NCBI GenBank assembly: GCA_965262915.1
Contig: OZ253564.1
Span: 1,696,001 to 1,760,000, forward strand
Direction of reading: 5' to 3'
DNA from: Candidatus Spongiisociaceae bacterium
GTDB taxonomy: Bacteria; Actinomycetota; Acidimicrobiia; Spongiisociales; Spongiisociaceae
DNA length: 64,000 nucleotides
Positions 31,384 to 64,000 of the stretch are shown one piece after another (position 1 is the first letter of the stretch; each line of letters starts with the position of its first letter). The translations under genes were made by a program, and so were the position numbers. A model generated the notes under the pieces. That model was not told where the DNA came from, made no database searches, and saw nothing but the letters and a program-made list of their open reading frames with translations.

Positions 31384-33107
31384 CTATGCGGGTGACCAGG
31401 TGGGGCATTCGCCGTTGCGGTCGATTTGTCTGTGGTTGGTCCCGTCGGAGTCGATAACGCCGACGCCGTCTTCGGTTCTGTACGCGAGGTGGTCACCTGT
31501 GGGTGATACAGCCAGGCAGCTTTTCTCGGTTAGGTCGTTGGTGAGGCGACGCATGCCACCATCGATGCCGACTACGTAGACGTCGTCGGCTAGGTAGGCG
31601 ACGCTTTGGCTGTCGGGTAGCCAGACCAGGTCGAACACCTTGCCGGGGAATATCTCGGTAAGGATCGATCCGTCGGTGTCGACGATTACCAGCCCCAGTG
31701 GCCAGCCTTCGAGGTCGTGGTGGGTGGCGAAGAGGCGAGCACCGTCGGGTGACCACCGGGGTCGCCATCCCTGCTGGGTGAGTTGTTTGCGGCCGCTCCC
31801 GTCGGAGTTGACCACCCAAACGCCACCGTCCTCACCGTTCCACGCGATCTGGGAGGCATCGGGCGACAGGCTCACAGCACGAAGTCCGCTACCAAGACGT
31901 CGACGGTTCGAACCATCGACACCCACCACCCACAGAGCCCCGGACTGGGTGTAGAAGATTCGTGTTTGGTCGGGCCACCACCGCGGAGTCGAACCCGCGT
32001 CGGCGACGCGCCGGCTGCCGTCACCGGCGGCGTCCGTCACGAACATCCCGTCATCGGTTGAATAAACGATACGGTTACCGTCGGGTGACCACATCGCCGA
32101 GGAACCGAGCCGGAGCCGGTTGGAACCGTCGACGTCGACGACCCACCGATCCCCTGACCTGTACAGGATACGAGAACTGTCGGGGGACCACACCGGATAG
32201 GGTCCGCCGGTAGCGACCTGCACCGGGTTGGCATCATCCACGTCCGCTACCCACAGGTTGACCTCACCCGGCCAGATCCCGTAGTCGGGCCAGGTAACCC
32301 CCCTGTAGAGGATGCGGGCACCGTCGGGTGACCATATCGGACCCGACGCATTGGTGGCGAGCGATCGACGGTTACCACCATCGGCGTCAACCACGATGAC
32401 GGAGGAGACCGGTCCGAGTTCCTCGGTGTAGGCAAGCCTGGAGGGTGTGGGTTGGACGATCTCGGGTAGGGGCACCAGGCCTAGGGCACGGGCCAGGAAC
32501 GTGGCCATCTGAGCCCTGGTCACCGCCTGCTGCGGGCAATACCGGACAGGATCGACAGCACAACCGGCGGTGATCCCGGCCGCGGCGAAAGTGTCGATGT
32601 TGGCGGCGTGGAAGTTGCCCGCGGTATCGGCGAAACCCGCCGGCGGTGCCGCCTCGAGATCGAACGCACGCGTAAGGAACGTGGCCATCTGCGCTCTGGT
32701 AACCGAATCACTCGGGCAGAAACGGGCCGGGCCGGTGCCACAACCGGAGGTGATGCCCAACACGGCGAGGCGTTCCACATGAGGCATCCACCACCGGCCC
32801 GAGTCCAAATCAGCGAACCGGGAGGCAGAAGTGGCAGATGGTTCTCTCCCGTCAACAGCCCGAACAAGCCAAACAGCCATCACCCAACGATCAAGAGGCT
32901 CATCAGGACAGAACCGACCCCTAGAGCATTCAGTACCTCCAACGATCCCCGCCTCGGCCAGCGCTTCCACAGACCGGGCGTGCACCCCCGCCTCTTCAAT
33001 ATCGCCGAATGCGTTCCCTCCCTGAGCTCCCCCGCGGTCGCCGTAGCTACCGCAAACGACGCCACCACAGCCCAAAGCGCCACCACACGACACCAGCCTG
33101 ACAACAC
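31384..33107 (-). pseudogene. SLH-domain surface protein with TolB/PD40-type beta-propeller; signal peptide out of frame
   Basis: Three SLH repeats (FCP...VTRAQMATFL), many WSPDG repeats; RBS GGAGG plus GTG at 33107 encodes a signal peptide that joins the main frame only if the G5 run at 33029-33033 were G6. Confidence 0.75.
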
Positions 33108-34371
33108 GGAAAGCCTCCCAGCCCCCGGACAACAACCGGTAGCCGATACTAAGCCACACCCGCCACTAGCGGTCCGAGAAGCCGCAGCCGGCCCATTCTC
33201 CGATGCTTCGCCCCGGTCAGCTCACACCTTCTACCCGAGCGGTACCACCCGGAGTACGGCCCTGACCGGACGTGACCCCGTCCGCAAGGCCGGTCCGAGC
33301 GAAGGCGTGGCCAACCCCCTGCCTTACTCATGGCTGGTCCGTCGTAGTCACGGCTATGAGTCCCGAGGTCGGCCGACGGCCCGTCAAAGAACTCGTAGCG
33401 GCGTTGGTCGCTGTCTTGAGGCAGGCCGAGGATGTGGGGAACACTCCCGAGGAGATGGCTACTCGTAAGGGAACGTCTCCTCTACCCCGACCAGTACCTG
33501 AGCCACTTCCCTTGGGCTGCGTCATGGCAGGAGGCGCACCAAACAGGTGTCACCTTCGAGGACGTTGTCACATCATCGGGCTAGTGATCGCCATCAATGC
33601 CGCTCCTCTTGGACCGTTTGATGTGGACCACCATCACCGATGAACTGTTGGCGCGTCTGAGGATACTCAACGGTCGGGACACAGACCTGGCCGCTGACGC
33701 GACTCGGGTCGCGAACCGCCTGAGAGACGCCCTATTAGCCGTGTCCCCGGCTCTTGAACGTGCCGTGGGAGACAAGCTGATGTCGACACCTGGTCTCAGA
33801 GCTGCGCTGGTGAGGTGGCCCACCCCCGCGGCGCTGCGAACCGCTGGCAAAGCCCGCGTCCAGACGCTGATATCCAAACGGTCCAAGCGCACCGCCACCA
33901 CACTCACCGACCAGATCTGGGCTGCGCTCCGCTCCCAGACCGTCACGGTGGTTGCCGAAGCGACCTGGGGCGAAACTATTGGTGACCTGGCTGGCGGCCT
34001 GGACCGGATCATCGCCCGCCGCCAGCGGCTCGCAGCCGACATCGAGGAGGCGTTCTTGGAGCATCCGCTCCGAACAAGTCCTCAACAGCATGTGCGGGTT
34101 CGGGCCCCGCACCAGCGCCCGAACCCTCGCTGAGATCGGCGACCCACACCGTTTCGCCAACCCAGGCCGGCTAGCCGCCTACGCCGGGCTTGCCCCCGTC
34201 AACTGGCAATCAGGCCGCACCAGCAACACCCGACGGGCACGAGGCGGCAACCACCGCGTCGGCAACGCCATGTTCATCGCCGCGTTCGTCGCTGCCCAAC
34301 ACGACCCCGACGCCCGCGCCTACTACCTGCGCAAACGAGCCCAAGGCAAAGAACACACTCATAATGGAATG

Positions 34372-34605
34372 GCTCTTTCCTTTGGGGGCCACCTGCGAAG
34401 ATGGGGTGGCCCCTTGGAGCGGGGGGCGGGTCTGACTCAAAAGAACACTGGCGTGCGCTTGCGTTGCCTTTGCGTTGATCTGTCGGCCTGTCCCCCGGTC
34501 CAGGGAAGAGCGGGGTTTCGGCTCCGAGCGGATGTGACCTAATAGGAGCTTTAGCTTCCCAGCACCGTGAGTGTACTGTCCACCGCTTTTTGCCGGAACC
34601 CCGCA
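34372..34605 (+). ncRNA. Predicted IS110 bridge RNA (5' hairpin, target-binding loop, donor-binding loop)
   Basis: Three stem-loops; the loops hold AAAGAACAC and TGCGTTG (target match) and ATAGGAGC and TGAGTG (donor match); starts just downstream of the junction promoter; ends approximate. Confidence 0.75.
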
Positions 34606-34637
34606 ACAAGAGTAGCGCCCTCGAGGAGGTGGTGGTC

Positions 34638-35870
34638 GTGTCGGGGAATCGGGTTGATGTGTTCGGTGGGGTTGATACCCATCGTGACACCCATGTAGCG
34701 GCGGTGGTGGATACTGCTGGTCGCCTGTTGGGGTCAGAGTCGTTCGCAGCGGAGGGAGCTGGGTATCAGCGGTTGGTCGCCTGGCTGGGATCGCAGGGAC
34801 ATCTGGTCCGGGTCGGGGTAGAAGGAACCGGTAGTTACGGCGCCGGGCTGGCCCGCTATCTGACCGAGGCCGACATCGAGGTGGTGGAGGTGAACCGGCC
34901 GAACCGCCAGCTACGCCGCCAGAAGGGCGGGAAGTCTGACAGCGTCGACGCCGAGGCAGCAGCTCGGTCGGCCGCCTCGGGCCAAGCAACCGCAGTTCCC
35001 AAGTCCGGTGACGGTCCGGTCGAGTGCCTGCGGATGCTGCTGGTGGTCCGCCGCTCCGCGGTCAAAGCCCGCACCCAGGCCGCCAACCAGATCCACTCTC
35101 TGGTGGTTACCGGCCCTGAGCAGGTCAAACAACAGCTAACAGGCATGAATCTCAAAGCCCAGGTCCGAGTTTGCGCCCGGTTCCGACCCGGCACAGACCA
35201 CACCACCACCGCCTACGCGAAGCGTGCCCTGCGGCATCTGGCCCGCCGATACCAAACCCTCGACACAGAGATCGGCGAACTCGACACCGAGATCAGAGGC
35301 CTCTGCGCGAAGGCGAACCCGGCGCTGCTGGCGGCAGAAGGTGTCGGTCCTGACACAGCCGCCGCTTTGTTGGTCGCAGTCGGCGACAACCCCGGGCGTA
35401 TGAAATCGGAACGGTCCTTTGCGGCGCTGTGCGGCACCAGCCCCGTCCAGGCATCATCGGGACAGACCATGCGGCATCGTCTCAACCGGGGCGGCGACCG
35501 GCAAGCAAACTGTGCGCTGTGGCGCATCGCTACCACCCGGATACGCCACGACGCCCGCACCAAAGACTACGTAACCCGACGCCAGACCGAAGGAAAGAAC
35601 CGAAAAGAGATCATCCGCTGCCTCAAGAGGCACATCACCCGAGAAATATACCGACTCATCACTAACCCGCCACCAACCCCGAACTGCGCGAAGCTGCGCA
35701 CCCTACGCCAACAAGGCGGCATCACCATCACCCAAGCCGCCCACGCTCTCCGAACCCACCCTGCCCGCATCTCAGAAATCGAACGCGGCCGAGACCACAA
35801 CCACCAGCTCGCTACCCGATACCAGAACTGGCTCCGAACCCACCAACCCGCCCCACCATCATCGATTTGA
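34638..35870 (+). CDS. IS110 DEDD recombinase with C-terminal XRE-like HTH
   Basis: GGVDTH, VGVEGTGSYG, KSDSVDA, ASSG catalytic-Ser loop, HRLNRGGDRQAN, RCLKR; tail LRTLRQQGGITITQAAHALRTHPARISEIERG. Confidence 0.92.
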   Translation: MSGNRVDVFGGVDTHRDTHVAAVVDTAGRLLGSESFAAEGAGYQRLVAWLGSQGHLVRVGVEGTGSYGAGLARYLTEADIEVVEVNRPNRQLRRQKGGKSDSVDAEAAARSAASGQATAVPKSGDGPVECLRMLLVVRRSAVKARTQAANQIHSLVVTGPEQVKQQLTGMNLKAQVRVCARFRPGTDHTTTAYAKRALRHLARRYQTLDTEIGELDTEIRGLCAKANPALLAAEGVGPDTAAALLVAVGDNPGRMKSERSFAALCGTSPVQASSGQTMRHRLNRGGDRQANCALWRIATTRIRHDARTKDYVTRRQTEGKNRKEIIRCLKRHITREIYRLITNPPPTPNCAKLRTLRQQGGITITQAAHALRTHPARISEIERGRDHNHQLATRYQNWLRTHQPAPPSSI

Positions 35871-36045
35871 CAATCATAGGAGCATCAACGCAGCCGTCAT
35901 CTGCGTCGCCCGCCGACGCCCCAACATCATCCTGGCCATGCTCAAAACCCAAACCCCCTACCAACCACCCCAAACCCAACCCGAAACCCCCCAAAACCTA
36001 CCCCAAGCGGCTTGACAACAAGACAGAGACACCCCCCCGGGGGGG

Positions 36046-36162
36046 GGGGTGTAACGCCGTAACAGACCTGTCGGACAGCCGGAACACAAAACCCTACGCG
36101 CGAACCAAAACAACCAAACAACCCGTAACACACACGACCCCCCGGGTCTTCTGTTACACCCC
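36046..36162. repeat. Small MITE-like segment with 10-bp inverted repeats
   Basis: GGGGTGTAAC ... GTTACACCCC; internal CGTAACA twice; preceded by a C7G11 run. Confidence 0.4.
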
Positions 36163-36296: not shown

Positions 36297-38034
36297 GAGC
36301 CTGCTGATTATCGGGTTCGGCGAGTTGGTGGTGTTGGGTGTGGTGGGGCTGGTTGGGGCTTGTGGGGTGGGTGTTTTGGGTCGGTTGATGGCGGTAGCGG
36401 GGTTCTTTGGGGGCGGCGTCCCGGTTTTGGGGTTCTAGGCGGGGTTGAGGACCCAGCCGGCTGGTCCTTGGTCGAGTCCGAGGTTGATGAGGCGTCGTAG
36501 GTTGATGGCTGCTGTTCTGGTGGTGAGCCATTGCTGGTTGGGGGTGATTCCTCGGTAGGGAACACGTCTGGCTTTCCCGCGGGTGAGCCAGGCGATGGTC
36601 CGTTCCACGGACGGCCGCAAGTTCCGGTAGGTGTTTTTGGTTTCGTCTTTGGCCCACCGTGTTTTGTTCGCGGCTCGCAGGTCGTGGTATTGGTCGACTG
36701 TGATGGTTCGTCCCGTCTTCGAGGTGGTGCATCGTGCCCGCAGGGGGCAGCCGTTGCACCGTTTCGAGAACGGGGCGGTACCACCGGGACGTATACGGGC
36801 GGTGTGGTTGGCGGGACACGTCACCGTCCGTCCCCCGGTGTCGATATCGAAATCGTCGCGGTGGAACCCATCCTTGATATGAGGCTTGCGTACGATGGGT
36901 TTCACCACCGGGCTGTGACCAAGATCATCGAACGTTTCGAGCGCCGCACCGGACGCGTACGCCGAATCCGCGACGATTTCGGCGCCCGGGGGTGCTTCGG
37001 CAACGAGATCCGCGATGCTGTCGGCGTCGGTAGTGTTGGCAGCGGTTAGGACCGCGGCGGTGACCAGGCCGGTTTCGGGTTCGGTAGCGACATGGGCCTT
37101 GTACCCGTCCCGTTTGTGGGTCCGGGTCTTGTGACCATGCCGCGCTTCGGCATCCACCGTCGATATGGTCCGATCCTTGGCCACACGCCGAGCTATCCGC
37201 CATCGGCCTTCCCGGTGGGGGTCCGGTTCCACATCCTGGCCCGTCACAACTCCCAACAGCCCTAGGGCGTCGGCCTGTTCGGGGTCCAGCTTCATGTCCT
37301 CGACTGCTTCGATCAGCCTCAGCCCGTCGGTGACCAGGCCGTCCACCAACTCCGAGCGGGCATCGGGATCAGACCAGTCGCAGGACGGTTTGGTCACCGA
37401 TTCGTAGTCATGGGCCACCAGCACCAGGTCGGCTGCCTGCGGGATCAGACGGCGGCAACGCCGTATCTGCGATGAGATCATCGTCACCGTGTCTTGGGTA
37501 GCAACCGCGTCGTGCAGAATGGTCGAGTCCAGCGCCCGACGGTCCCTGGTCGCCAACACCCCGGACTCGGTGACTACTTGACGTACCGCGTCGAAGATAC
37601 GCTCCGGCTTTTCGCTGGCACGCAACCGGGCACGCCACAGGGTCAGCACCGTCGGGTGGAACCCCCCATGTGTCAACGACAGACCAGTCGCGGCTTTCCA
37701 AGCTATATCACGGCGTAGCCGCTGTATCGCTTCCCGGTCCGAGAGGCACTCCAACGCCTGGAGGACCATCACCGCAGCGATCACCGGACCCGGTATCGAG
37801 GGGCGGCCCCGCGGGCCGAACAGATCGGCGAACATCTCATCGGGAAACAGACGGCGGCGGTTCTCGGCCAGGAACCGGTACACAGACCCTTCCGGAACCA
37901 GATGCCACAGATCCGTCGTGTCCAGAAACTCACGGTCAAAGCTTTCATATCCCTGCATAACCCCTACAATAGCTACAACAAACACAAAACGCGAACCCGC
38001 CACACCCCGACAAGGCGACTAAATCAGCACCCTC
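36297..38034 (-). mobile_element. IS1182-family IS, complete
   Basis: Imperfect inverted repeats GAGCCTGCTGATT / AATCAGCACCCTC, flanked by CTAG at 36293-36296 and 38035-38038. Confidence 0.88.
36435..37958 (-). CDS. IS1182 transposase
   Basis: GRPSIP, LSDREA, ALDST, DRTISTVDAEARHGHK, GYKAH, ADSAY, CNGCPLRARCT, RPSVER. Confidence 0.9.
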   Translation of the reverse strand: MQGYESFDREFLDTTDLWHLVPEGSVYRFLAENRRRLFPDEMFADLFGPRGRPSIPGPVIAAVMVLQALECLSDREAIQRLRRDIAWKAATGLSLTHGGFHPTVLTLWRARLRASEKPERIFDAVRQVVTESGVLATRDRRALDSTILHDAVATQDTVTMISSQIRRCRRLIPQAADLVLVAHDYESVTKPSCDWSDPDARSELVDGLVTDGLRLIEAVEDMKLDPEQADALGLLGVVTGQDVEPDPHREGRWRIARRVAKDRTISTVDAEARHGHKTRTHKRDGYKAHVATEPETGLVTAAVLTAANTTDADSIADLVAEAPPGAEIVADSAYASGAALETFDDLGHSPVVKPIVRKPHIKDGFHRDDFDIDTGGRTVTCPANHTARIRPGGTAPFSKRCNGCPLRARCTTSKTGRTITVDQYHDLRAANKTRWAKDETKNTYRNLRPSVERTIAWLTRGKARRVPYRGITPNQQWLTTRTAAINLRRLINLGLDQGPAGWVLNPA

Positions 38035-63284: not shown

Positions 63285-64000
63285 GATGCTCCTATGGTTG
63301 TCAAATCGATGATGGGGCGGTTTGGTGGGTGTGCAGCCAGTTCTGGTATCGGGTGGCGAGGTGGTGGTTGTGGTCTCGGCCGTGTTCGAGTGCTGAGATG
63401 CGATTGGGGTGGGTTCCGACGGCTTGGGCGGTCTGGGTGAGGGTGATGCCGCGTTGTTGGCGTCGGGTGCGTAGGCGGGCGCAGTTCGGGGTTGGGTGCG
63501 GGTTGGTGAGGAGCCGGTAGATTTCTCGGGCGATGTGCCGCTTGAGGCAGCGGATGATCTCCTTTTTCTTCTTGCCCTCGGCCTTGCGTCGTGCCACGTA
63601 GGCTTTGGTGGCGGCGTCGGTGCGCATCCGGGTGGTAGCGATCCGCCATAGCGCGTTGTTGGCTTGGCGGTTGCCGCCCCGGTTGAGACGATGCCGAAGG
63701 GTTCGTCCTGATGACGCCTGGACGGGGCTGGCGCCGCACAGCGCCGCGAAAGACCGTTCCGATTTCATTCGCTTGGGGTTGTCGCCGGCGGCGACCAACA
63801 ACGCGGCGGCTGTGTCAGGACCGACACCTTCTGTGGCCAGCAGGGCCGGGTTGGCCTGGGCGCAGAGACGCCGGATCTCGGCTTCGAGTTGGGCGATCTC
63901 TACGTCGAGAGCCTGATACCGGCGGGCCAAATGCTGTAGGGCACGCTTCGCATACGCGGTGGTGGTGTGGTCTGTGCCGGGTCGGAACCGGGCACAGGTT
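63285..64000 (-). mobile_element. Second IS110 relative (partial), recombinase C-terminal half with HTH tail, stop at 63301
   Basis: Close but non-identical paralogue of 34638-35870; same end TTGACAAnCATAGGAGCATC. Confidence 0.9.

What the first reader, a model, noticed from the sequence alone, without database searches (positions are those of the whole stretch)
34340..35900. IS110 whose predicted bridge RNA is programmed against a site inside another IS110 transposase gene
Seen: removing 34357-35886 restores GGC AAA GAA CAC AAC GCA GCC (GKEHNAA) in the host IS110 gene. In the inner element's left end, a stem (GGGGGCGGGTCTGAC/GTCGGCCTGTCCCC) encloses AAAGAACAC (34440-34448), identical to the left half of that target. 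It also encloses TGCGTTG (34471-34477), the reverse complement of the right half CAACGCA. A second stem (GCGGGGTTTCGGC/GCCGGAACCCCGC) encloses ATAGGAGC (34542-34549), which matches the element's right end at 35876-35883, and TGAGTG (34568-34573), complementary to CACTCA at the donor junction. Known: IS110 elements such as IS621 use a bridge RNA with target and donor loops. Inference: this is a complete natural bridge system read directly from sequence. It may specialise in parasitising other IS110 genes, since the target encodes part of their C-terminal helix.
Basis: partly seen in the sequence, partly recalled or inferred. Interest (0 to 1): 0.92.

Follow-up and report, generated by a model that had tools for sequence, protein, structure and literature searches.

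The report
IS110 bridge-RNA element nested in another IS110
An intact RNA-guided IS110 jumping gene sits inside the wrecked gene of an older, unrelated IS110, at the exact site its own guide RNA loops spell out; it is a clear natural example of a known mechanism, not a new one.

Summary
Window 34357-35886 (±2 nt, because CA is shared at both junctions) is an intact IS110-type element. It has a 281-nt left end with a 5' hairpin and two internal-loop hairpins, a 410-aa DEDD+Ser transposase, and a 16-nt right end.

The loop sequences match both the target halves and the element's own ends. In 10 related specificity classes the target guides track their own flanks: 135 of 140 positions for cognate pairs, a mean of 5.4 of 14 for non-cognate pairs, and 0 of 200,000 permutations as good. 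The donor guides also covary with the element ends.

Uninterrupted host-type IS110 genes in three related genomes read AAAGAACAC|AACGC, and metagenome contigs join across exactly 1530 nt.

Of the three 99%-identical copies, two lie at this site in host IS110 copies that are only 88% alike, so they are independent insertions. The third lies in an intergenic 12-of-14 site.

"Specialised on IS110 genes" is only weakly supported. All 7 sister classes in this genome target other insertion sequences (ISL3, IS21-like, IS630-like). No same-guide copy was found elsewhere.

Verdict: a new member of a known kind, with moderate interest.

The parts
33597..34356 (+). Host IS110-family transposase pseudogene, left part. 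It lacks the 5' end and has a frameshift near 34070-34130. It ends ...GGC AAA GAA CAC.
   Evidence: Pfam finds the DEDD_Tnp_IS110 tail (E 1.8e-4) and Transposase_20 (E 2.6e-23). The Tnp domain is 35% identical to the inner element's.
34348..34356 (+). Left half of the target, AAAGAACAC, identical to the left target guide.
   Evidence: Reading. Empty sites in relatives.
34357..35886 (+). Inner IS110-type element, 1530 nt. Its boundaries can slide by up to 2 nt because CA is shared at both junctions.
   Evidence: Three copies at 99-100% identity. Contigs skip exactly 1530 nt. Uninterrupted homologues of the host gene.
34360..34365 (+). CATAAT, a -10 hexamer that gains a -35 partner only in the circular form.
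   Evidence: Reading: TTGACA (35867-35872), then 14 nt of right end plus 3 nt of left end (a 17-nt spacer), then CATAAT. One search finds no + strand promoter in the linear arrangement.
34384..34414 (+). 5' stem-loop of the predicted bridge RNA.
   Evidence: MFE and centroid fold. Present in the A-like relatives and absent from the shorter left ends of B-type relatives.
34422..34495 (+). Target-binding stem-loop. The left target guide is 34440-34448. The right target guide plus the stretch that reads the donor end is 34470-34479. The apical GGC/GCC stem is 34450-52 / 34466-68.
   Evidence: In one search the basal helix is 95.8% paired and 4 of its 14 pairs change on both sides.
34510..34604 (+). 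Donor-binding stem-loop. The left donor guide ATAGGAGCTTT is 34542-34552. The right donor guide is 34567-34573, the reverse complement of ACACTCA at 34355-34361.
   Evidence: The donor guide and right end covary as ATAGGAGC, GTAGGAGC, ATAGAAGC and ATAGGGGC. In L043 the right donor guide and left end covary.
34638..35870 (+). Transposase gene with a GTG start, a GAGGAGG ribosome-binding site 8 nt upstream, 410 aa, and a TGA stop at 35868-35870 inside the -35 hexamer.
   Evidence: Pfam DEDD_Tnp_IS110 5e-26, Transposase_20 6e-20, and HTH_31/HTH_3 at residues 352-386. NCBIfam 'IS110 family RNA-guided transposase' scores 209 bits against a cut-off of 140. D, E, D, D and S align with the IS621 catalytic residues. 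The ORF is intact in all 3 copies.
35867..35872 (+). TTGACA, a -35 hexamer in the right end.
   Evidence: Reading. Conserved in all relatives aligned.
35876..35886 (+). Right-end terminus ATAGGAGCATC, the left donor half.
   Evidence: Identical to the donor guide over 8 nt. Covaries with it in relatives.
35887..36015 (+). Host IS110 pseudogene, right part (NAAVICVARRRPNIILAMLK...). AACGC(A) at 35887-35892 is the right half of the target.
   Evidence: Reading. Homologues read continuously across the site.

Best explanation
Window 34357-35886 is a recently active IS110-subgroup insertion sequence that moves by bridge-RNA-guided recombination.

Inferred life cycle. The element excises as a circle. 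Joining the right end to the left end creates the promoter TTGACA-N17-CATAAT. Transcription from it yields a roughly 230-nt RNA and the transposase mRNA. The RNA has a 5' hairpin, a target-binding internal loop and a donor-binding internal loop.

Guide pairing.
[quoted passage not shown] - The donor loop does the same with the element's own right end (ATAGGAGC...) and left end (ACTCA).
- The DEDD+Ser transposase then exchanges strands at the shared C(A).

Target. The 14-nt target AAAGAAC-AC-AACGC lies in the C-terminal coding part (GKEH|NAA) of a different, decayed IS110 lineage, so the element ended up nested in it twice.

Shown here: the anatomy, the guide-flank and guide-end covariation, the empty sites, the independence of the insertions, and conservation of the catalytic residues. 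Inferred: the circle, transcription, and the chemistry.
For: Anatomy: long non-coding left end, short right end, and a three-hairpin fold with z = -4.3.

Structure: the consensus keeps the target-loop and donor-loop helices across 8 and 19 relatives. In one search, 95.4% of cells pair, against 38-47% when partners are slid by 1-3 columns.

Protein: DEDD_Tnp_IS110 plus Transposase_20. NCBIfam IS110 RNA-guided transposase scores above its cut-off. All five IS621 catalytic residues align.

Over 10 classes the cognate score is 135 of 140, non-cognate pairs average 5.4, and 0 of 200,000 permutations match the cognate total. Four donor-guide / right-end haplotypes covary.

Empty sites: three related genomes carry the uninterrupted 14-mer in the homologous gene. 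Contigs in runs X1 (3 contigs) and X2 (1 contig) join 34355 to 35886, skipping 1530 nt.

Recent activity: there are 3 copies with identical left ends and intact ORFs, differing at 12-14 nt. No unoccupied site with 0 or 1 mismatch remains in the genome.

Independent insertions: the host flanks are 545 of 619 identical (88%), against 99% for the inner copies.

Fit to the published model: a 5' stem-loop plus two internal loops; 8-9 nt on the 5' side pairing with the bottom strand and 4-7 nt on the 3' side pairing with the top strand; handshake bases (Durrant 2024, sections 6-7; Hiraizumi 2024, passages).
Against: - There is no direct evidence of the RNA, the circle or the recombination. One search lists no 'go back' joint. 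The only possibly-RNA run (X17) is labelled a guess and holds contigs only.
- Rfam 15 gives no match at E <= 1, so the RNA could not be tested against a curated family model.
- The core does not behave as in IS621. The left guide reads AC, the right target guide reads TC, the left donor guide reads TT, and only C(A) is shared between target and donor.
- The left donor guide mismatches the donor at position 7.
- RNAalifold pairs part of both donor guides internally (helices 3 and 4).
- Compensatory changes in the helices are few. Most pairs are simply conserved.
Confidence: 0.9

Rival explanations
1. One reading: the element is a specialist parasite of IS110 transposase genes. It is said to have been selected to hit the sequence encoding their C-terminal helix.
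For: - 2 of 3 copies sit at the same codon position of two host IS110 copies that are 12% diverged.
- The same 14-mer is intact in host-type genes of 3 other genomes.
- Both perfect sites in this genome are occupied.
Against: - The third copy lies in an intergenic 12-of-14 site beside an AAA ATPase gene.
- The 14-mer is conserved only within one host lineage. Of the 15 uninterrupted copies readable on both sides of the site, 3 match perfectly and 5 have 1 mismatch.
- The inner element's own gene matches 9 of 14 at the homologous place (reading).
- None of the 6 sister classes in the same genome targets an IS110 gene.
- No same-guide copy was found in 28 family genomes or in the genome and metagenome pattern scans.
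Confidence: 0.2
2. The two nested copies are one insertion, later copied together with its host IS by segmental duplication or by mobilisation of the composite. On this view they say nothing about site choice.
For: Both copies have identical junctions and the same orientation relative to the host gene.
Against: - The host flanks are only 88% identical (545 of 619) while the inner copies are 99% identical.
- The upstream host structure differs between the two copies.
- A third copy sits at a similar but unrelated site.
- Sixteen further insertions of relatives sit exactly where their own guides predict.
Confidence: 0.04
3. The loop-flank identities are chance, or are target sequence carried into the left end, and have no guide function.
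For: None specific. Only 3 copies of this particular element exist.
Against: - The permutation test over 10 classes.
- The guides sit at fixed positions in conserved internal loops, while the sequence between conserved anchors changes with the flank.
- The 9-mer occurs only 18 times in the whole genome.
Confidence: 0.02

Closest known systems
IS621 of Escherichia coli (IS110 family) and its bridge RNA. Sources: Durrant et al. 2024, PMC11208160, sections 6-7 and passages; Hiraizumi et al. 2024, PMC11208158, passages.
   Same: - The RNA is encoded in the left end upstream of the transposase gene.
- It has a 5' stem-loop followed by a target loop and then a donor loop.
[quoted passage not shown] The 3' side is complementary to the top strand over 6-7 nt.
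- A base next to the right target guide reads the donor's position 7, as a handshake base does.
- The -35 hexamer is in the right end and the -10 in the left end, so they are joined only in the circle.
- The DEDD and Ser catalytic residues are conserved.
- Insertion creates no duplication beyond the shared core.
   Different: - Protein similarity is remote (E 1.8e-10, two short aligned stretches).
- The transposase has 410 aa against 326-328, with an added C-terminal HTH.
- There is no CT core. Only C(A) is shared between target and donor.
- The right target guide and the right donor guide each read position 8 of the OTHER partner. They therefore fit the integrated junctions better than the substrates.
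- The natural target is another IS's coding sequence, not a REP element.
seekRNA elements ISEc21 (IS110 type) and ISEc11 / ISXne4 (IS1111 type). Source: Siddiquee et al. 2024, PMC11187229, passages.
   Same: An RNA from the non-coding region upstream of tnp selects the target in the IS110 type. Close relatives are naturally re-programmed to different targets.
   Different: Here at least 7 re-programmed specificities coexist in one genome. No experiment has been done on this element.
[quoted passage not shown] I know these only as citations in PMC11208160 and PMC11187229; I did not read the original papers.
   Same: DEDD-transposase elements whose fixed target lies in another mobile element, so they ride on it and disrupt it.
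   Different: Those belong to the IS1111 subgroup, with the RNA downstream of tnp and subterminal inverted repeats. They hit terminal repeats or recombination sites. This element belongs to the IS110 subgroup and hits the interior of a transposase coding sequence.

Membership tests
IS110-subgroup bridge-RNA insertion sequences | [quoted passage not shown] | tested here: met
   PF01548 5e-26 and PF02371 6e-20. NF033542 scores 209 bits against a cut-off of 140. D, E, D, D and S align with D11, E60, D102, D105 and S241 of IS621, with a chain numbering offset of +2.
IS110-subgroup bridge-RNA insertion sequences | Long non-coding left end upstream of tnp, short right end, and no terminal inverted repeats. 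| tested here: met
   The left end is 281 nt (34357-34637) and the right end is 16 nt after the stop codon. By reading, the termini ACTCATAATGG and ...ATAGGAGCATC are not inverted repeats of each other. No repeat tool was run.
IS110-subgroup bridge-RNA insertion sequences | [quoted passage not shown] | tested here: met
   Single-sequence fold with z = -4.3. Consensus folds of 19 and 8 relatives. Pair counts with slide controls. The donor-loop outer stem aligned poorly across subgroups and was assessed only in the 8-sequence set.
IS110-subgroup bridge-RNA insertion sequences | The first loop matches the target and the second matches the element's ends. The 5' side equals the top strand and the 3' side is complementary to it. 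| tested here: met
   Left target guide 9 of 9, right target guide 7 of 7, left donor guide 8 of 8 (9 of 11 if extended), right donor guide 7 of 7 against the left junction (reading).
IS110-subgroup bridge-RNA insertion sequences | Guides covary with target and donor across relatives. | tested here: met
   Ten target classes score 135 of 140 for cognate pairs, with 0 of 200,000 permutations as good. Four donor-guide / right-end haplotypes, and the L043 right donor guide with its left end.
IS110-subgroup bridge-RNA insertion sequences | An identical core dinucleotide in target and donor, read by all four guides and flanking the inserted element. | tested here: inconclusive
   CA is shared at both junctions. 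In the IS621 register, however, the target has AC and the donor TC. The four guides read AC, TC, TT and AC. In sister classes only one C is common to all.
IS110-subgroup bridge-RNA insertion sequences | [quoted passage not shown] | tested here: met
   TTGACA at 35867-72 and CATAAT at 34360-65, giving a 17-nt spacer when the ends are joined (reading). The -35 hexamer is conserved in all 21 right ends aligned. Function was not shown.
IS110-subgroup bridge-RNA insertion sequences | A circular intermediate, an RNA bound by the transposase, and RNA-dependent recombination. | not testable with these tools
   All four runs laid were contigs, and no go-back joint was listed.
Mobile elements that target other mobile elements (IS4321 / IS5075-like habit) | Site-specific and orientation-specific insertion into a conserved sequence of another element, seen repeatedly and independently. 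| tested here: met
   2 of 2 nested copies sit at the same nucleotide and in the same orientation, in host copies 88% alike. 16 of the 17 B-type relatives listed sit 4 nt past the stop codon of an ISL3 transposase gene.

The most novel reading that the evidence does not exclude
The element is one member of a guild of IS-hunting insertion sequences, a single IS110 clade that carries a C-terminal HTH. Its target loop has been re-programmed again and again onto conserved sequences of other IS families.

- In this genome the targets are an IS110 gene interior, the stop-codon region or 3' end of ISL3 genes (3-4 classes), and the ends of an IS21-like and an IS630-like element.
- In two related genomes the target is a CYD|NAAAES-coding remnant.

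On this reading, other transposons serve as safe landing sites and are knocked out as competitors.

A second point concerns position 8 of the target. In the classes where it differs from the donor (A, L026, L028/L029, and L053 and L051 in other genomes), every left junction keeps the target's base and every right junction keeps the donor's base. The 3' guides also read the partner's base. This is the outcome expected if only the top strand is exchanged and replication finishes the job. If so, it would be natural evidence for the single-strand, copy-and-paste model proposed for IS621 in a 2026 preprint, of which I saw only the abstract.
Probability: 0.35. Interest if true: 0.65.

Novelty: new member of a known kind. 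Interest (0 to 1): 0.45.

Why it matters
One 5-Mb genome carries at least seven naturally re-programmed bridge RNAs on near-identical scaffolds, each with its cognate occupied sites and, for most, empty sites too. That makes it a compact natural data set for three questions:
- how target loops evolve;
- how much mismatch is tolerated (here, 12-of-14 and 13-of-14 sites are occupied);
- how the core and the handshake positions are read when target and donor differ.

It also shows that RNA-guided insertion sequences can be aimed at the coding sequence of a rival transposase. This bears on how IS populations regulate one another in IS-rich genomes; repeats make up 13.9% of this one.

It does not reveal a new mechanism.

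Tried and rejected
- Rfam: no family matched at E <= 1, so no curated-model membership test was possible.
- Same-guide copies elsewhere: none in 28 other genomes of the family. The pattern scans of genome contigs and metagenome contigs each returned 0. Both scans note that records of the window's own genome may be left out.
- Circle junction or RNA evidence: all four runs laid are contigs. No go-back joint was listed. X17 is only guessed to be RNA. One of its contigs covers 34356-34574 and carries 3 unmatched letters at its start, which I could not read. I draw nothing from this.
- A single fixed 2-nt core for the whole clade: no register fits every class. B-type and L027-type junctions carry an extra C that may belong either to the target or to the left end. 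The paralogue of the L017 off-target site differs by a GCC/GCT repeat unit and did not settle the matter.
- The IS3 identity of the L043/L058 target: Pfam at E <= 10 and NCBIfam at E <= 0.1 gave no hit on the 80-aa flank. The IS3-like reading rests on my recalled motif (CYDNA..ES, YN..R.HS) only.
- L066: another sequence abuts the same codon of a host-type gene at a contig end. It has no IS110-type left end, and I did not pursue it.
- Literature on IS110 elements that target transposase coding sequences: searches listed none, and the passages I read name REP elements, attC sites, Tn21 inverted repeats and an intergenic repeat. Durrant's Supplementary Table 1 and Data 2 list natural targets and may include IS-borne ones.
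Full report
**1. What is in the sequence**

- The flank ...GGC AAA GAA CAC ends at 34356 and AAC GCA GCC starts at 35887.
- The intervening 1530 nt begin ACTCATAATGG and end ATAGGAGCATC.
- They hold one long ORF (34638-35870, GTG start, GAGGAGG 8 nt upstream, 410 aa).
- A 281-nt non-coding left end precedes the ORF and 16 nt follow it.

Pfam finds DEDD_Tnp_IS110 (5e-26) and Transposase_20 (6e-20), plus a marginal C-terminal HTH_31/HTH_3 at residues 352-386. NCBIfam's 'IS110 family RNA-guided transposase' scores 209 bits against a cut-off of 140. In the alignment to the IS621 chain 8wt6_A, the two Asp, the Glu, the further Asp and the Ser of the active site all line up. Overall similarity is remote (E 1.8e-10).

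The flanking fragments are the remains of a different IS110 lineage.
- Pfam finds the Transposase_20 domain (2.6e-23) and the tail of the DEDD domain.
- The Tnp domain is 35% identical to the inner protein's.
- The 5' end is missing and there is a frameshift.

**2. The RNA**

The left end folds into a 5' hairpin (34384-34414) and two long hairpins with internal loops. The free energy is -136.9 kcal/mol, z = -4.3, and 0 of 200 shuffles fold as well.

The first hairpin's loop holds two guide stretches.
- AAAGAACAC (34440-48) is identical to the left flank.
- GCGTTGAT (34472-79) lies within 34470-79. The complement of that wider stretch matches 35884-35892 over 9 nt, which is the element's last ATC plus AACGCA.

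The second hairpin's loop also holds two.
- ATAGGAGCTTT (34542-52) matches the right end ATAGGAGCATC. The first 8 nt are identical, position 7 of the donor is mismatched, and the last position could form a G·U pair.
- GTGAGTG is the reverse complement of ACACTCA at 34355-61, which is the target's AC plus the left end's ACTCA.

This is the layout published for IS621: a 5' stem-loop, then a target loop, then a more conserved donor loop. In that model the 5' sides pair with the bottom strand over 8-9 nt and the 3' sides with the top strand over 4-7 nt (Durrant 2024, sections 6-7). Bases next to the 3' guides read the partner DNA after strand exchange (Hiraizumi 2024, passages).

Rfam 15 gave no match.

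Joining the ends would place TTGACA (35867-72, overlapping the stop codon) 17 nt upstream of CATAAT (34360-65). In the linear state the scan finds no + strand promoter.

**3. More than chance: relatives in the same genome**

The genome (5.05 Mb, 64% G+C) holds three copies at 99-100% identity and about 20 full-length relatives at 72-81%. Further relatives occur in 18 of 28 other genomes of the family.

Between conserved anchors (GGTCTGAC ... TGGC ... GATCTGTCGG) the guide positions differ from class to class, and each matches its own flanks. For ten classes I scored the 9 left and 5 right positions.
- Cognate pairs give 135 of 140.
- Non-cognate pairs average 5.4, with a maximum of 9.
- None of 200,000 permutations reaches the cognate total.

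These rows are one representative per class. I left out same-class copies and the truncated loci L033, L041 and L057.

The donor side covaries too. Donor guide and right end read ATAGGAGC, GTAGGAGC, ATAGAAGC or ATAGGGGC together, with one 7-of-8 exception in L032. In L043 both the left end and the right donor guide have changed, to TGTGATGAG and its complement.

The helices are conserved. In the 19-sequence alignment 95.4% of cells pair, against 38-47% when partners are slid. Five of 24 pairs change on both sides. Helices 3 and 4 of that prediction pair guide residues with each other, and I do not take them as real.

**4. The target and the empty site**

Uninterrupted homologues of the host gene in related genomes read straight through the site.
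- ...GGCAAAGAACAC|AACGCC... is a perfect 14 of 14 in L060, L082 and L083, from three genomes.
- Five further copies have one mismatch, and the others have three or more.

Laying contigs of four public runs on 34200-36000 gave a joint from 34355 to 35886 that skips 1530 nt. It occurs in X1 (3 contigs) and X2 (1 contig), with 2 nt that fit either side. One X2 contig bridges the left junction with no differences. The insertion is therefore exact, and it shares CA (34356-57 = 35886-87) with the target.

**5. Independent insertions and activity**

The three copies have identical left ends and intact ORFs, and differ at 12-14 positions.
- Two lie at the same nucleotide, in the same orientation, in host copies whose flanks are only 545 of 619 identical.
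- The third lies in an intergenic site GAAGAACAC|AACGA (12 of 14) beside an AAA ATPase gene.

The genome has no unoccupied site with 0 or 1 mismatch and 22 sites with 2 mismatches. The third host-type copy in this genome reads AAACGCCAC|AACGC and is unoccupied.

**6. Is it a specialist on IS110 genes?**

Not on this evidence.
- No element with these guides was found outside this genome, so the sample is three insertions.
- All seven classes in this genome have targets in or within about 300 nt of another transposase gene.
  - Class A: an IS110 gene.
  - Class B: 4 nt after the stop codon of an ISL3 gene, in 16 of 17 elements.
  - L026: across the stop codon of another ISL3 gene.
  - L028: about 37 nt beyond that gene.
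  - L005: in the same repeat as L028.
  - L004: about 60 nt upstream of an IS21-like gene (157 bits, just under the 160 cut-off).
  - L027: about 117 nt from an IS630 gene.
- Repeats of 200 nt or more cover 13.9% of the genome.
- In two other genomes a distant relative sits in ...CYD|NAAAES..., which I recall as an IS3-type motif. No profile confirmed this.

That IS110 elements favour repeated sequences is already known, as is the fact that IS1111 relatives target transposon ends and attC sites (passages and reference lists).

**7. The core oddity**

In the IS621 register (7 nt + 2 core + 5 nt) the target reads AC and the donor reads TC.
- The left target guide reads AC and the right target guide reads TC.
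- The right donor guide reads AC and the left donor guide reads TT.

The two 3' guides therefore fit the integrated junctions better than the substrates. The same holds in L026, L028/L029, L053 and L051: the left junction has AC and the right has TC. Empty sites for L026 and L028 read AC.

This pattern is what top-strand exchange after position 9 would leave if the other strand were not exchanged or were replaced by replication. A 2026 preprint proposes single-strand excision for IS621; I saw its abstract only. This is inference. B-type and L027-type junctions carry an extra C, and I could not resolve their register.

**8. Verdict**

The 'IS110 specialist' idea is weak. The element is a new member of a known kind, in an unusually informative family.

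Noticed in passing
window 35691-35795 (residues about 352-386 of the transposase); also L004, L006, L027, L028, L037: The transposase carries a C-terminal extension of about 65 aa that Pfam scores as HTH_31/HTH_3 (27.2 and 25.3 bits, at their cut-offs). The motif ...ITLTQAA..LG.HP.RIS.LE.GRDHNH.LATRYQ.WL is conserved across the whole clade. IS621 lacks it. Its role is unknown.
   Followed up: partly
window 35594-35607: The element's own gene reads AAAGAAC-CG-AAAAG at the codons homologous to the host's target (GK motif). That is 7 of 7 for the left target half but 9 of 14 overall, and it is shifted by one base in the reading frame. It is a half-match to the element's own guide that is evidently not used.
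   Followed up: partly
window 34931-34937, 35040-35047, 35140-35141: The window copy differs from the other two copies in three tight clusters (element positions 575-581, 684-691, 784-785). This looks like short gene-conversion patches. Metagenome contigs carry the other allele at 35040-47 and 35140-41.
   Followed up: partly
genome-wide; e.g. G000:C1:312773, 784042, 4748953: Unoccupied ISL3 ends come in three forms: ACTGAAATCCGATGAG or ...GAAGAG (17 sites), ACTGAAACGCGATGAG (6) and ACTGAAATCGATGAG (1). Only the last is a contiguous match to the B-type guides. So B-type elements may have filled nearly all cognate ends, and the extra C may protect the rest.
   Followed up: partly
G000:C1:543407-543450 (L029 right flank) and three further copies: One repeated element carries the targets of two different classes 12 nt apart: CGCGAAAAC|GTGGG, then GGTGAAATC|CTTGG. 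Four perfect sites for the second class are unoccupied.
   Followed up: no
L017 = G000:C1:3663632-3665083: A B-type element sits at a site that matches its guides poorly (5 of 9 on the left, 1 of 5 on the right), about 40 nt after a DDE_Tnp_1 transposase gene. Its left flank AAAGAACCC resembles the class A guide.
   Followed up: partly
window 36435-38003 (- strand) and 36013-36060: A 522-aa DDE_Tnp_1 / DUF772 transposase gene lies just right of the host IS. The host's right end holds another TTGACA and a C11/G10 palindrome at 36029-36052, which is scored as terminator-like on the - strand.
   Followed up: no
window 63285-64000: A B-type relative (81% identity, - strand, genome 1759285-1760734) runs off the right end of the window.
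   Followed up: no
B-type left ends, e.g. L006 and L007: B-type, L026-, L027- and L028-type relatives have left ends about 40 nt shorter and lack the 5' stem-loop present in this element. The 5' hairpin therefore seems dispensable in the clade.
   Followed up: no
window 31384-33159 (- strand): A 591-aa ORF with many WSPDG-type repeats and N-terminal repeats of the kind 'VTRAQMATFL' lies left of the host IS. It was not analysed.
   Followed up: no
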